64,000 nt of DNA from a virus, in the IMG/VR virus record IMGVR_UViG_3300045988_160113, positions 32,001 to 96,000 of that record. One strand, written 5' to 3'. The notes under the pieces are model-generated. The model worked only from the letters and a program-made list of their open reading frames with translations. It had not been told where the DNA came from and did not search any database. This document shows, in pieces, positions 56,773 to 59,193 of the stretch (within the stretch, counting starts at the first letter, position 1; every line of letters begins with the position of its first letter). The position numbers and the translations under genes are program-made.

Positions 56773-57522
56773 ATGGGAATTATTATGTTGAATAACAAGG
56801 TTCTGGTGAATCAGAATAAGATTGCGATGTATATACCTCCTTTTGAACCACCTGCTAAAGGTTCGATTGTAAAGATGAATTTGGATGGGACTGAAAGACA
56901 GTATAGAGTATTGAGTGTAAATGGAAACGTTTGTAAAGTATTAGGAATGTGGGATGACTTTGCAAGCAAATATAATGAAACAAGTACAACTACTACTTTC
57001 GGAAGCACTACTGCTCAGAAATACGAAGGTTCTACTTTAGATACCTATTTAAATACTACTTGGTATAATACATTAACTAGTGCTGCTAAGGCGGCTATTG
57101 TACCTGAGAATGTAGTACAGTATTGTTATAAATATTATGATGAACCAAATACTCCAAATACACCTACATATACATATCAATATCAGCATAACTGGTCTAA
57201 TTCAGATTATGAAAATGCCGATAATGTAGGCAATGTAACTGTTGGAGAACGTAACGTGTTTGCTTTAGATTTGAAGGATATTTTTGATTATATGGGAAAA
57301 GTGTGTATTACATCTGATGAACTAATGATTATGTTTTGGAATAGTACAACTAAAGTATCTAAATATCTATGGTTGCGGTCCTCTCTTGCCGACTATTCTT
57401 ACGGTGCGTGGATTGTGTCCGGTGACACTGGTAATTTGAGCTACACTGGTGTTGCTAATAGTTGTGTCGTGCGGCCCGCGCTTAATCTAGATATGTCCAA
57501 AATCCAGTACACCCTCGTGTGA
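56773..57522 (+). CDS. DGR target protein (variable receptor-binding protein) with a C-terminal variable region
   Basis: GAGGTGA SD. The C-terminus …LWLRSSLADYSYGAWIVSGDTGNLSYTGVANSCVVRPALNL… is encoded by the VR, which matches the TR downstream. Confidence 0.85.
   Translation: MGIIMLNNKVLVNQNKIAMYIPPFEPPAKGSIVKMNLDGTERQYRVLSVNGNVCKVLGMWDDFASKYNETSTTTTFGSTTAQKYEGSTLDTYLNTTWYNTLTSAAKAAIVPENVVQYCYKYYDEPNTPNTPTYTYQYQHNWSNSDYENADNVGNVTVGERNVFALDLKDIFDYMGKVCITSDELMIMFWNSTTKVSKYLWLRSSLADYSYGAWIVSGDTGNLSYTGVANSCVVRPALNLDMSKIQYTLV
57373..57480 (+). repeat. DGR variable repeat (VR), 108 nt
   Basis: Gap-free alignment to 58006-58113. It has 18 mismatches, all at TR adenines. Confidence 0.9.
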
Positions 57523-57535
57523 GCGGGTAGCTGGA

Positions 57536-57549
57536 GGCGCCTCAGCGCC
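57536..57549 (+). promoter_or_regulatory. GC hairpin downstream of VR (candidate DGR homing-enhancing hairpin/cruciform)
   Basis: GGCGC-ctca-GCGCC lies within an unusually GC-rich ~50 nt patch just after the target gene's stop codon. Confidence 0.4.
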
Positions 57550-57618
57550 GACAGCGTCCGCGGAGGAAAATATTTTCTAAAAATTATCAAATAACATTTT
57601 ATAAGGAGATTTTATTCA

Positions 57619-57993
57619 ATGGCTGAATTCAATCTTATCAATCGTGCAGAAAATATGGTTGACTATTTATTAACAATTACAGATAAAGCACCTAAAAAAC
57701 TTCGCTCAGATATTATCCCAGAACTTCGTAGAGCAAGTTTCAAATGTATTCAAGCAATCATTAAAGCTAATAATTGTCCACTTGACAAAACTCAACCTTA
57801 TTATACTGAACTTAGAAAACAATACCAACTTGAAACTAAAAGTTTTCTTCAAACAATTAGTGCTTATTCTGAGATTTGTATGAAGCATAACTACATTACT
57901 AAGAAACAATTCGATGTACTAAACGACCATATTTTCAAATGTCAAGATACCCTTATAAAATGGATGACTTCAGATGAAAATCGTTTGAAGTAA
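57619..57993 (+). CDS. avd: DGR accessory variability determinant (Avd-like four-helix-bundle protein)
   Basis: A 124-aa basic helical protein with an AAGGAG SD, located between the target gene and the TR, as in canonical DGR cassettes. Confidence 0.7.
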   Translation: MAEFNLINRAENMVDYLLTITDKAPKKLRSDIIPELRRASFKCIQAIIKANNCPLDKTQPYYTELRKQYQLETKSFLQTISAYSEICMKHNYITKKQFDVLNDHIFKCQDTLIKWMTSDENRLK

Positions 57994-58005
57994 CAGGTAT
58001 ATAAC

Positions 58006-58113
58006 TTGCGGTCCTCTAATGCCGACAATTCTAACAATGCGTGGAATGTGAACGGTAACAATGGTAATTTGAACAACAATGATGTTACTAATAGTAATGT
58101 CGTGCGGCCCGCG
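58006..58113 (+). repeat. DGR template repeat (TR), 108 nt, rich in AAY codons
   Basis: TTGCGGTCCTCTAATGCCGACAATTCTAACAAT…GTCGTGCGGCCCGCG. It is non-coding and lies between avd and the RT. Confidence 0.9.
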
Positions 58114-58269
58114 ATTAGGAAATAAAACAAAGATTTGTTTATAGTAACATGGGTTCTATACAATATCTTTTTTCTAAGGAGTTATATCCCTTCTGTAAAA
58201 AGAAAAATATTACTTGTGTATGATTATATCGTAACTATGTAATCTGCACTTCTTAGGAGGTTGCACAAG

Positions 58270-59193
58270 TTGTATAAAGAAATTTTGTGTAATTTTGATA
58301 ATATTTATAAAGCTTATAAAATAGCTCATAGAGGAAAAACAGATGATAAAGAAGTAATTGAGTTTGATAAAGATAAGATATATAATTTGAAAAAATTACA
58401 AGAAAAACTATTGAATAAACAATGGGATGAAATATTTACCTATTATAGGTTTGTAATTACCGACCCGAAGAAAAGAACTGTTGATGCTTTACATTTTGAA
58501 GGTAGAATAGTTCAACACGTTCTTTGTGATTTGATATTGAGACCTTACTTTGAAAGAAGATTGATAAAGGAAAATGCGGCTTGTAGAATAAATAAAGGAA
58601 CTGAGTACGCAGTGAATTTATTGAAAAAAGGTATTATTGAATATTATAAGAAAAATGATGACGGTTATGTTCTTCAAGCCGATGTTCATAAATATTTTCC
58701 AAGTATTGATAGAAAGAAATTGAAGGAGATAATTGATTATCCAAATAAAGAGATTTTAGAATTGATTCATTGGATTATTGATTGCGCGCCTGGCAATGGT
58801 ATTCCTATTGGTAATCAGTCTTCACAATGGTTTGCTTTATATTATTTGGATAAAATTGATAGAATTATCAAAGAGAAGTATAGATGTAAGATTTATGTCA
58901 GATATATGGATGATTTGATAGTTATAGATAAAAGTAAAGATAAACTAAAAAGAATTTTAGGTGATATTATACGAATCGGCCGAGAATTCGGATTGGAATT
59001 CAATGGAAAGACGCAAATATTCCCGCTAAGAAAAGGAATTTGTTTTTTGAGTTGGAAGTTCATTAGAAAAGAAAATATAATAAAACTGTTGAATCCAAGA
59101 AAGAAGTCAGGGAAAATAAAGAAGATAAAAGAAATTTTCAATGAAGGACCTGATAAGTTTGGGAGCGTTTTCAGTCTATGCGCGCCTACTTAA
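58270..59193 (+). CDS. DGR reverse transcriptase
   Basis: It has the DGR-type motif IGNQSSQWFA and the catalytic YMDD (YVRYMDDLIVI). It uses a TTG start: 58270 lies 9 nt after AGGAGG, whereas the ORF track starts at TTG 58261. Confidence 0.85.
   Translation: MYKEILCNFDNIYKAYKIAHRGKTDDKEVIEFDKDKIYNLKKLQEKLLNKQWDEIFTYYRFVITDPKKRTVDALHFEGRIVQHVLCDLILRPYFERRLIKENAACRINKGTEYAVNLLKKGIIEYYKKNDDGYVLQADVHKYFPSIDRKKLKEIIDYPNKEILELIHWIIDCAPGNGIPIGNQSSQWFALYYLDKIDRIIKEKYRCKIYVRYMDDLIVIDKSKDKLKRILGDIIRIGREFGLEFNGKTQIFPLRKGICFLSWKFIRKENIIKLLNPRKKSGKIKKIKEIFNEGPDKFGSVFSLCAPT

What the first reader, a model, noticed from the sequence alone, without database searches (positions are those of the whole stretch)
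56773..59193. Complete diversity-generating retroelement with strictly adenine-specific TR-to-VR differences
VR (57373-57480) lies in the C-terminal coding part of CDS 56773-57522. It aligns without gaps to TR (58006-58113) over 108 nt.

I count 18 mismatches, and every one falls on an A in TR. By codon, TR to VR:
- AAT>CTT, AAT>TAT, AAC>TAC, AAT>GGT, AAT>ATT, AAC>TCC, AAC>GAC
- AAT>ACT, AAC>AGC, AAC>TAC, AAT>ACT, GAT>GGT, ACT>GCT, AAT>TGT

Both repeats end in the identical GC-rich GTCGTGCGGCCCGCG (IMH-like) and then diverge. A GC hairpin (57536-57549) follows the target gene.

The gene order is target, avd-like gene (57619-57993), TR, then an RT (58270-59193) with the DGR-type IGNQSSQ and YMDD motifs. 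The target sits at the end of an array of Mtd-N-like fibre genes. This suggests programmed diversification of a receptor-binding tip.
Basis: partly seen in the sequence, partly recalled or inferred. Interest (0 to 1): 0.8.

Follow-up and report, generated by a model that had tools for sequence, protein, structure and literature searches.

The report
Phage diversity retroelement with broken RT
This is a genuine diversity-generating retroelement that rewrites the tip of a gut-phage receptor-binding protein, but in this strain a one-base deletion has cut off the end of its reverse transcriptase and the variable region appears frozen, so it is an ordinary system caught just after switching off.

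Summary
VR 57373-57480 and TR 58006-58113 align without gaps over 108 nt. There are 18 mismatches, all at TR adenines (P = 3e-12).

The gene order is target (Pfam DUF6273), Avd-like gene, TR, then RT. The RT's best solved relative is the Bordetella phage DGR enzyme bRT. Across 120 homologous targets, only the 17 codons that hold an A in TR are hypervariable.

"Complete" is not fully right. The window's RT lacks one T in a T-run at 59158-59160. This puts the conserved last 29 residues out of frame. Seven contigs from independent assemblies carry the same allele.

Three distinguishable strains with the frameshift share an identical VR. Two sister strains with an intact RT differ by 22 of 108 VR bases but by only 9 positions in the other 8.7 kb.

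Three further lineages have no avd-TR-RT beside the target. Each also shows one fixed VR across many samples.

Best reading: a known kind of DGR, active in the phage group and probably just inactivated here. It is a new member of a known kind, with modest extra interest as a natural loss-of-function series.

The parts
56556..56768 (+). 70-aa ORF made of an Mtd_N-like domain only, ending 4 nt before the target gene
   Evidence: Pfam Mtd_N scores 21.7 bits, E 2e-4, below the cut-off. The 72-aa homologues beside the target in L001, L002 and L017-L026 are recorded as Mtd_N. The motif GE..(6)..MKVGDGV is shared with ORFs 51710, 52082 and 53587.
56773..57522 (+). DGR target gene, 249 aa: a small N-terminal beta domain followed by a DUF6273 domain, with the VR near the C-terminus
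   Evidence: Pfam DUF6273 E 1.9e-13, residues 73-240. There are 1365 homologues. The AF2 model has pLDDT 73 and pTM 0.70. Foldseek matches DUF6273 proteins of phage MAGs and the DUF6273 N-terminal domain of 9qa6.
57373..57480 (+). Variable repeat (VR), codons 201-236
   Evidence: All 18 of 18 mismatches to TR are at TR adenines. The 17 hypervariable codons have about 3 bits of entropy, against 0.37 bits elsewhere, in 120 homologues.
57466..57484 (+). GC-rich 3' end of VR (IMH-like), GTCGTGCGGCCCGCG followed by CTTA; it encodes the family-wide VVRPAL motif
   Evidence: Identical in TR and VR, with divergence after it. A C>A change at 57472/58105 is present in both VR and TR of the L001 lineage. 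It is also the 3' breakpoint of the VR tract found in DGR-less contigs.
57523..57562 (+). GC-rich imperfect hairpin: GCGG / GCTG / GGCGC, loop CTCA, then GCGCC / CAGC / CCGC. It starts 42 nt after the VR.
   Evidence: The DNA fold has z = -2.6. It is unchanged in L001, L007, L008 and L017. The loop sequence and the distance differ from the GRNA loop and the 4-34 bp distance reported in PMC3240598.
57619..57993 (+). avd-like accessory gene, 124 aa
   Evidence: PHROG 3206 'Avd protein of DGR', E 1.1e-9. NCBIfam DivGenRetAVD scores 27.5 bits against a cut-off of 80. Of 58 relatives, 51 hit Pfam bAvd, best E 3e-14. A profile search gives weak hits to 4dwl (Bbp7) and 8ub7_B (Avd).
58006..58113 (+). 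Template repeat (TR): 32 adenines, none in a third codon position; 14 AAY codons
   Evidence: It is identical in L005-L011 and differs by 2 nt in L001.
58114..58269 (+). Non-coding spacer between TR and RT, the presumed counterpart of the Sp part of the DGR RNA
   Evidence: There are 0 differences from L001 over 58114-58260, against 2.1-3.5% divergence in the flanking genes. It is still largely conserved in L004, whose RT is 82% identical. The 57960-58275 stretch that contains it folds with RNA z = -2.9. Its function is inferred from bRT work (10.1101/2023.10.23.563531).
58270..59193 (+). Reverse transcriptase ORF as it stands: 307 aa, TTG start, premature stop after 10 out-of-frame codons
   Evidence: PHROG 1423 E 1.8e-80. 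The best PDB hit is bRT 8ub7_A at E 4.9e-34, against 2e-8 for a group II maturase. Motifs IGNQSSQ and YMDD are present. Homologues are 326 aa.
59158..59160 (+). Frameshift site: TTT here, TTTT in L001, L007 and L008
   Evidence: The same allele is on 7 contigs.
59160..59249 (+). Stranded, out-of-frame RT tail: WERFQSMRAYLRLGNTYYFRKKRLIYNYI followed by a stop
   Evidence: Seen on translation. It is identical to the C-terminus of P0001. Residues S303, L308, G311 and T313 are at least 90% conserved in 115 homologues.
59264..60082 (+). Downstream fibre gene, 272 aa. The N-terminal anchor and C-terminal motif are conserved. About 165 aa in the middle are absent from the 108-aa version in L007 and L008.
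   Evidence: In lineages without avd-TR-RT, this gene directly follows the target.
60093..61223 (+). Second DUF6273 protein, 376 aa, high G+C, not diversified
   Evidence: Pfam E 3.8e-36. The window holds no TR-like partner; the best match is 45% identity. The VR-like stretch is nearly invariant in 22 close homologues.

Best explanation
This is a bona fide phage diversity-generating retroelement (DGR). Its expected mode of action is inferred from the Bordetella phage BPP-1 system. An avd-TR-spacer RNA is bound by the RT and by pentameric Avd. The RT copies TR into cDNA and misincorporates opposite adenines. The cDNA then replaces the VR in the target gene, guided by the GC-rich 3' end of VR and perhaps by the downstream GC hairpin.

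The 32 TR adenines sit only in first and second codon positions, in 14 AAY codons plus GAC, GAT, ACT and AGT. No stop codon can therefore arise. About 7e18 protein variants are possible over 18 codons of the DUF6273 receptor-binding tip.

In the phage group this process is running now. In the window's own strain, a 1-nt deletion in a T-run (59158-59160) has moved the conserved last 29 residues of the RT out of frame. These are the end of the thumb. The most likely consequence is an inactive RT. The VR we see, with 18 adenine-site changes, is then the last state written before the element was disabled.

Shown: the TR/VR pattern, the identity of the parts, the inherited frameshift, the frozen versus rewritten VRs, and repeated absence of the cassette in relatives. 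Inferred: the enzymatic mechanism, the roles of the spacer and hairpin, and the loss of activity of the truncated RT.
For: 1. All 18 mismatches are at TR adenines, P = 3.4e-12. Only one VR/TR pair exists in the window.

2. The RT's best solved relative is bRT (8ub7_A, E 4.9e-34), well ahead of a group II maturase (2e-8) and a retron RT (1e-4). Chain B of the same entry is named Avd.

3. Avd family: PHROG 3206 E 1e-9, and 51 of 58 relatives hit Pfam bAvd.

5. Population data: entropy is about 3 bits, with 11-16 residue types, at most TR-adenine codons (1.85 bits and 8 types at codon 207). It averages 0.37 bits over residues 1-200.

6. L007 and L008 both have an intact RT. They differ at 22 of 108 VR positions but at only 9 positions in the remaining 8.7 kb. 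Their TR is identical.

7. Frameshift: the window's RT gene differs from that of L007 and L008 by the missing T alone. The exact 307-aa product is on 7 contigs assembled by different pipelines. The lost tail holds four positions that are at least 90% conserved in 115 homologues.

8. Frozen VR: the window, L010 and L011 differ by SNPs and by a swapped downstream cassette. The window and L010 differ at 16 positions in 4.7 kb. Their VRs are nevertheless identical at 108 of 108 positions.

9. A prediction was tested. All three further target proteins found on many contigs (P0196 on 16, P0164 on 8, P0191 on 6) sit in loci with no avd-TR-RT next to the target. Each has one invariant VR, although background divergence reaches 3.8%.
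Against: Loss of RT activity is inferred, not measured. All catalytic motifs are intact, and only the last 29 of 326 residues are lost.

The sample is small: three frameshift haplotypes against two RT-intact sister haplotypes. The frameshift strains are very close to each other, with only 1-2 differences in the 2.8-kb cassette. A short divergence time or selection for this VR could also explain the identity.

No raw reads were available. Within-sample VR heterogeneity and the T3 versus T4 allele could not be checked at read level.

The C-type lectin fold of the target was not recovered directly: Foldseek did not return Mtd or TvpA.

The hairpin departs from the published pattern. Its loop is CTCA, not GRNA, and it starts 42 nt from the VR rather than 4-34 nt.
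Confidence: 0.7

Rival explanations
1. The element is a fully active, complete DGR. Either the 307-aa RT still works, or the tail is restored by ribosomal or transcriptional slippage or supplied in trans by co-infecting RT-intact strains. The VR identity among frameshift strains would then reflect recent common descent or selection for a successful VR.
For: All catalytic motifs, avd, TR, the spacer and the IMH-like end are intact. The frameshift strains differ from one another by only 1-2 nt within the cassette. The stranded tail is still an open frame identical to the intact homologue, so the lesion is young or tolerated.
Against: The pair window/L010 is more diverged in the background (16 differences in 4.7 kb) than the pair L007/L008 (9 in 8.7 kb). 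Yet it has 0 VR differences against 22.

The lost tail is under purifying selection in 115 homologues. In bRT the thumb engages the template-primer duplex and the spacer RNA.

By inspection, AAG TTT GGG is not a canonical X XXY YYZ slippery site. A run of 3 T is also too short for efficient transcriptional slippage (established knowledge).
Confidence: 0.2
2. The missing T is a sequencing or assembly error in a homopolymer, and the real genome has an intact 326-aa RT.
For: The lesion is a single-base length change in a short homopolymer run (TTT followed by GGG). This is a classic error context.
Against: The same allele is found on 7 contigs from different samples and assemblers: MEGAHIT-style k119, SPAdes-style NODE and Logan. 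These contigs fall into three haplotypes distinguished by SNPs and by a different downstream cassette. Sister strains assembled in the same ways carry TTTT. A run of 3-4 bases is not error-prone on short-read platforms (established knowledge).
Confidence: 0.05
3. The repeat pair is an ordinary duplication that has diverged by point mutation. It is not a retroelement template and target.
For: None beyond the existence of a 108-nt direct repeat.
Against: All 18 differences fall at TR adenines, P = 3e-12. Four independent VR states exist against a near-constant TR (2 nt different in L001), and 29 of its 32 adenines are hit in at least one of them. A bRT-type RT and an Avd-family gene lie adjacent.
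Confidence: 0.01

Closest known systems
Bordetella phage BPP-1 DGR (mtd, avd, TR, brt)
   Same: The gene order is the same: target, avd, TR, RT. The differences between TR and VR are adenine-specific. AAY codon design avoids stop codons. VR and TR share a GC-rich 3' end and then diverge. A GC hairpin with a 4-nt loop lies downstream of the VR. The RT is the closest solved relative (8ub7_A, E 4.9e-34, with YMDD and I/LGxxxSQ motifs). Mtd_N-type domains occur in the fibre cluster.
   Different: The target is a 249-aa DUF6273 protein, not the 381-aa Mtd. The Mtd_N-like domain is a separate 70-aa ORF upstream. Avd is very divergent, with no direct PDB sequence hit. The hairpin loop is CTCA, not GRNA, and the hairpin starts 42 nt from the VR rather than 4-34 nt. 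The RT here is frameshifted. The host is probably a Gram-positive gut anaerobe.
Gut-phage DGRs with DUF6273 targets: Faecalibacterium prophages Lelie, CP11, Roos and Pioen (PMC11792537), and the tgt2 proteins of phages nd4 and nd12 (PMC10743442)
   Same: The target domain is DUF6273 with the VR at its C-terminal end. The targets are small single-domain proteins of about 234-294 aa. The habitat is the gut. VRs differ between related phages at TR-adenine sites.
   Different: No sequence-level match to any deposited phage: megablast and tblastn against 50,697 records found nothing for the cassette or the target. The genome is about 135 kb, with a DNA polymerase at most 38% identical to known phages. 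There is a single target, a static DUF6273 paralogue beside it, and a frameshifted RT.
N-terminal DUF6273 domain of the Thomasclavelia ramosa IgA peptidase (PDB 9qa6; PMC12402451)
   Same: It is the only solved structure that Foldseek matches to the target model (E 3.7e-4). The paper assigns its residues 31-322 to DUF6273.
   Different: It is part of a bacterial multidomain metallopeptidase, not a phage fibre protein, and it is not diversified. TM-score to the query is only 0.44.

Membership tests
Diversity-generating retroelement (DGR) | A TR/VR repeat pair whose differences are (almost) all at TR adenines | tested here: met
   18 of 18 in the window. In relatives: 20 of 20 in L007, 16 of 17 in L008, and 17 of 17 in L001 against its own TR. 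P = 3.4e-12.
Diversity-generating retroelement (DGR) | A reverse transcriptase of the DGR clade, with YxDD and the I/LGxxxSQ motif, closest to bRT | tested here: met
   Motifs IGNQSSQ and YMDD are present. bRT (8ub7_A) scores E 4.9e-34, against 2e-8 for a group II maturase and 1e-4 for a retron RT. No phylogeny was built. NCBIfam has no DGR RT model, and all its RT hits are far below their cut-offs.
Diversity-generating retroelement (DGR) | An RT gene that is intact, so the element is functional | tested here: not met
   A 1-nt deletion at 59158-59160 gives a 307-aa product instead of 326 aa. The conserved tail is out of frame. This bears on activity, not on what kind of element it is.
Diversity-generating retroelement (DGR) | An accessory variability determinant (Avd, a four-helix-bundle family) next to TR | tested here: met
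   PHROG 3206 E 1.1e-9. Pfam bAvd and NCBIfam DivGenRetAVD are below cut-off for this protein itself. However, 51 of 58 of its relatives hit bAvd, and the profile gives weak hits to 4dwl and 8ub7_B. The fold was not modelled.
Diversity-generating retroelement (DGR) | An IMH-type GC-rich 3' end of VR, with VR and TR diverging after it, plus a downstream GC hairpin with a 4-nt loop | tested here: inconclusive
   The GC-rich shared end and the divergence after it are present. The hairpin is present and conserved. Its loop (CTCA) and its distance (42 nt) fall outside the pattern in PMC3240598. Function is not testable here.
Diversity-generating retroelement (DGR) | VR encodes the ligand-binding face of a C-type lectin fold (or Ig-like) target | tested here: inconclusive
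   Pfam DUF6273. In the AF2 model (pLDDT 73), the VR falls on a beta-hairpin, strands 211-215 and 222-226. Foldseek returned DUF6273 proteins but not Mtd or TvpA. The C-type lectin assignment rests on PMC10743442. Surface clustering could not be computed because no coordinates were available.
Diversity-generating retroelement (DGR) | Evidence of ongoing adenine-directed VR turnover | tested here: met
   Met for the phage group. Not seen in the frameshift lineage to which the window belongs.
Pfam DUF6273 domain family | A score above the Pfam gathering threshold | tested here: met
   51.1 bits against a cut-off of 23.5 for the target, and 124.9 bits for the second gene at 60093-61223.

The most novel reading that the evidence does not exclude
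This phage group may be a replicated natural experiment on DGR loss, and diversified VRs may move between genomes as cassettes.

At least four lineages lack a working or adjacent DGR: one 1-nt RT frameshift, one apparently clean absence of avd-TR-RT, and two or more replacements after the VR. Each carries a frozen VR. RT-intact sister strains rewrite the VR faster than point mutations accumulate.

The window's exact 108-nt VR also sits in DGR-less, otherwise diverged backbones (L014-L016). The identity tract ends exactly at the end of VR/TR homology. This suggests that a finished VR can be passed to relatives by recombination, or less likely by a retrohoming-like event, at the IMH.
Probability: 0.3. 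Interest if true: 0.55.

Novelty: new member of a known kind. Interest (0 to 1): 0.38.

Why it matters
As a DGR it adds nothing new in kind. DUF6273-targeting DGRs in gut phages are already published.

Its value is as a data point on DGR dynamics in nature. In one closely related set of uncultured, roughly 135-kb gut phages, three things can be read directly from assemblies:
- VR turnover in RT-intact strains outpaces background mutation by about two orders of magnitude per site.
- A single-base lesion in the RT thumb coincides with a frozen VR.
- Absence of avd-TR-RT next to the target recurs and is tolerated, because these lineages are the ones found in the most samples.

Annotation pipelines that call this locus a complete DGR would overstate its activity. 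Checking the RT C-terminus against close homologues is a cheap safeguard.

Tried and rejected
- **Scans for the full adenine-masked TR pattern:** no match in viral contigs or in the first metagenome scan. A shorter pattern found only two contigs that end before the RT (L012, L013).
- **Deposited phages:** megablast of the cassette and tblastn of the target found nothing.
- **Rfam on 55000-64000:** only chance-level hits, and none on the TR-spacer region.
- **A second VR for this TR:** searched on both strands, allowing up to 15 non-adenine mismatches. None was found in the window or in the loci scanned at that point, L001-L008.
- **A TR partner for the VR-like end of the second DUF6273 gene:** best identity 45%, so rejected. 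That region is also invariant in close homologues.
- **First AF2 run:** used a shallow alignment of sequences at least 78% identical and failed (pLDDT 36).
- **Sequence searches of the PDB:** nothing useful for the target or for Avd alone.
- **Foldseek:** did not return Mtd or TvpA.
- **Covariation in the spacer:** not attempted further, because the available spacers are too similar.
- **Programmed frameshifting:** considered and judged unlikely by inspection of the site.
- **Assembly chimerism as the source of the shared VR in L014-L016:** considered. It is less likely because L015 and L016 come from two assembly pipelines and carry a private SNP at 57476. It is not excluded.
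Full report
**1. The observation**

VR 57373-57480 and TR 58006-58113 align without gaps over 108 nt. They differ at 18 positions, and each of these is one of the 32 adenines of TR. The changes are A>C 4, A>T 7 and A>G 7. 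The chance that 18 differences all fall on those 32 positions is 3.4e-12.

A pattern made from TR with every adenine masked matches only these two places in the window. It matched none of 100 shuffled sequences.

Both repeats end in GTCGTGCGGCCCGCG and then diverge. The next base could be a 19th adenine-site change (TR A58114, VR C57481).

TR has no adenine in a third codon position. It has 14 AAY codons plus GAC, GAT, ACT and AGT. From the genetic code, adenine mutagenesis therefore cannot make a stop codon. The number of possible protein variants is 15^14 x 4^4, about 7e18.

**2. The parts**

- **Target.** ORF 56773-57522 is a 249-aa protein with a Pfam DUF6273 domain (E 1.9e-13).
- **Avd.** ORF 57619-57993 matches PHROG 3206, 'Avd protein of DGR' (E 1.1e-9). 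On its own it falls below the Pfam bAvd and NCBIfam DivGenRetAVD cut-offs. A search of 1.8 billion representative proteins gave 116 relatives. Of the 58 I aligned, 51 hit Pfam bAvd, with best E 3e-14. Their profile weakly finds bAvd itself, as 4dwl Bbp7 and 8ub7_B Avd.
- **RT.** ORF 58270-59193 carries the IGNQSSQ and YMDD motifs. Its best solved relative is 8ub7_A at E 4.9e-34. A group II maturase scores 2e-8 and a retron RT 1e-4. I identify 8ub7 as the bRT-Avd complex for two reasons. Its chain B is named Avd. The aligned YMDD places the aspartates at 215-216, as stated for bRT in 10.1101/2023.10.23.563531.
- **Hairpin.** It differs from the phage DGR pattern in PMC3240598, which has a GRNA loop 4-34 bp from the VR. 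Its role is therefore plausible but unproven.
- **Fibre cluster.** Four ORFs in the cluster (starting at 51710, 52082, 53587 and 56556) share an Mtd_N-like motif. Two of them pass Pfam's cut-off. One is a 70-aa ORF that ends 4 nt before the target.

**3. The RT is not intact**

The closest homologues are 326 aa, not 307. The missing C-terminus, WERFQSMRAYLRLGNTYYFRKKRLIYNYI, is present in the window but out of frame, at 59160-59249.

Alignment with L001, L007 and L008 shows a single missing T in the run at 59158-59160. The RT gene of L007 and L008 differs from the window's by nothing else.

The lost tail contains four positions (S303, L308, G311, T313) that are at least 90% conserved in 115 homologues of 42-83% identity. 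In bRT, the thumb contacts the template-primer duplex, and a single-stranded 'Thumb Ring' of spacer RNA wraps round its base.

The lesion is not a one-off error. The exact 307-aa product is encoded on 7 contigs from different samples and assemblers.

**4. Activity in the phage group**

The target has 1365 homologues. The best 120 are all at least 78% identical. In their alignment, mean entropy is 0.37 bits over residues 1-200. It is 1.85-3.46 bits at the 17 hypervariable codons that hold an adenine in TR, with 11-16 residue types at most of them. Codons without an adenine stay conserved.

L007 and L008 both have an intact RT and the same TR as the window. They differ at 22 of the 108 VR positions, but at only 9 positions in the other 8.7 kb. 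Over four VR states, 29 of the 32 TR adenines are seen changed.

A C>A change in the GC-rich end is present in both TR and VR of the L001 lineage. This fits TR-to-VR information transfer reaching at least that position.

**5. The VR looks frozen where the RT is defective or absent**

The window (which is identical to L005, L006 and L009), L010 and L011 all carry the frameshift. They are distinguishable strains. The window and L010 differ at 16 positions in 4.7 kb and have different cassettes downstream of 60010. Yet their VRs are identical at 108 of 108 positions.

I then tested a prediction: target proteins found unchanged on many contigs should lack a working DGR. All three that I looked up did.
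- **P0196** (16 contigs). The target and the hairpin are followed directly by the fibre gene that follows the RT in the window. avd-TR-RT is absent.
- **P0164** (8 contigs) and **P0191** (6 contigs). The same fibre gene begins 14-15 nt after the target's stop.

In each lineage the VR is invariant, although background differences reach 3.8%.

There are caveats. An RT elsewhere in those genomes is not excluded. Sample sizes are small. No read-level data were available.

**6. An unexplained extra**

The window's exact VR also occurs in contigs with no DGR: L014, and L015/L016 with one non-adenine change. Their flanks are diverged. The identical tract runs from 57220 (L014) or 57331 (L015) to 57485. 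That is exactly the end of VR/TR homology, and this sequence encodes the family-wide VVRPAL motif.

The simplest reading is recombination of a frozen VR allele between related phages. Assembly chimerism is less likely but not excluded.

**7. Fold of the target**

A first AF2 run with a shallow alignment failed (pLDDT 36). A second run added the divergent DUF6273 family and gave pLDDT 73 and pTM 0.70. In that model the VR lies on a beta-hairpin, strands 211-215 and 222-226.

Foldseek matched DUF6273 proteins of phage MAGs (best E 2e-12) and the DUF6273 N-terminal domain of an IgA peptidase (9qa6, E 3.7e-4). It did not return Mtd or TvpA.

**8. Context**

The window is part of an uncultured phage of about 135 kb (contig lengths). 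Related contigs come from human and pig gut metagenomes.

It encodes a distal tail protein (Dit), a minor tail protein, NrdD, its own DNA polymerase, topoisomerase II and a CHAP plus PG_binding lysin. These suggest a Gram-positive anaerobic host. Its DNA polymerase is at most 38% identical to that of any deposited phage.

**9. Verdict**

The finding is a real DGR of a known type, so it is a new member of a known kind. The element is correctly identified, but it is not complete in this genome. Its RT carries an inherited frameshift, and the VR appears to be a fossil of the last diversification.

My confidence that it is a DGR is about 0.97. My confidence that it is inactive in this strain is about 0.7.

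Noticed in passing
window 59430-62120: A stretch of about 2.7 kb at 55-67% G+C sits in a phage of about 33% G+C. It begins inside ORF 59264-60082, which stays open across the junction. It also covers a second DUF6273 gene and a CBM_5_12 gene (61236-62036). Sister strains carry different versions of this module, with DUF6273 genes of 369 or 486 aa, so it looks like a swappable receptor-binding cassette of foreign origin. One 549-nt part is 90% identical to a human faecal phage, MT835513.1.
   Followed up: partly
window 60093-61223: A second DUF6273 protein (376 aa) lies right after the DGR. Its C-terminus looks like a VR (WWLRSP...GIRPCIILP). It has no TR partner in the window, and this stretch is nearly invariant in 22 close homologues. 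It is a static paralogue. Many relatives of about 490 aa carry two DUF6273 domains in tandem.
   Followed up: yes
L014 2052-2159; L015 5155-5262; L016 2830-2937: The window's exact VR sits in contigs without avd, TR, RT or hairpin (108 of 108 nt in L014, 107 of 108 in L015 and L016). The flanks are diverged. The identity tract ends exactly at 57485, the end of VR/TR homology.
   Followed up: partly
L017-L026 (P0196), L027-L032 (P0164), L033-L038 (P0191): In three lineages from human and pig gut, the target is followed directly by the fibre gene that follows the RT in the window. avd-TR-RT is absent. In P0196 the hairpin is retained. Each lineage has one invariant VR across 6-16 contigs. These VRs still differ from the window's TR mostly at adenines (19-23 of 28-31 differences). 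This suggests earlier DGR activity followed by loss.
   Followed up: yes
L035 4157-4264: In one DGR-less pig-gut lineage, a downstream 418-aa DUF6273 gene holds a second VR-like stretch related to the same TR. It has 27 differences from TR, 19 of them at adenines.
   Followed up: no
window 58114-58260: The non-coding spacer between TR and RT has no difference from L001, although the flanking avd and RT genes differ by 3.5% and 2.1%. It is still largely conserved in L004, whose RT is 82% identical. This fits a structured DGR RNA, but there was too little variation to test covariation.
   Followed up: partly
window 59264-60082 vs L007/L008 8493-8819: The fibre gene after the RT is 272 aa here but 108 aa in the sister strains. 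The same N-terminal 78 aa and C-terminal motif (ASGNIVKQTLV..ENYAINW) are kept. The difference is an in-frame insertion or swap of about 165 aa.
   Followed up: no
window 48771-51344: The 857-aa fibre protein contains long runs of 21-nt (7-aa) repeats at 50025-50581. It also has 9-nt G-x-y collagen-like repeats (GDKGDK...) at 50895-51107, and a 72-nt tandem duplication at 50946-51089.
   Followed up: no
window 62205-62264: A 15-bp perfect inverted repeat (AGAGTGGGAAGAGAA and TTCTCTTCCCACTCT) with a 30-nt loop lies just downstream of a strong promoter-like site (TTGACT, 17 nt, TATAAT; 62168-62196) and just before gene 62278-62646. It drew only chance-level Rfam hits.
   Followed up: no
window 56773-57372 vs L001: The target gene upstream of the VR is 11.3% diverged from L001, while avd, TR and RT are only 2-3.5% diverged. 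L015 carries the L001-type allele there. The target backbone is itself mosaic.
   Followed up: partly
window 12600-46600 (minus strand) and 1-8350: A replication and nucleotide-metabolism module on the minus strand (NrdD, DNA polymerase, RecJ-like exonuclease, DnaB-like helicase, topoisomerase II) separates the Dit and minor-tail genes from the fibre/DGR module. The DNA polymerase is at most 38% identical to that of any deposited phage, so the phage itself is undescribed.
   Followed up: partly
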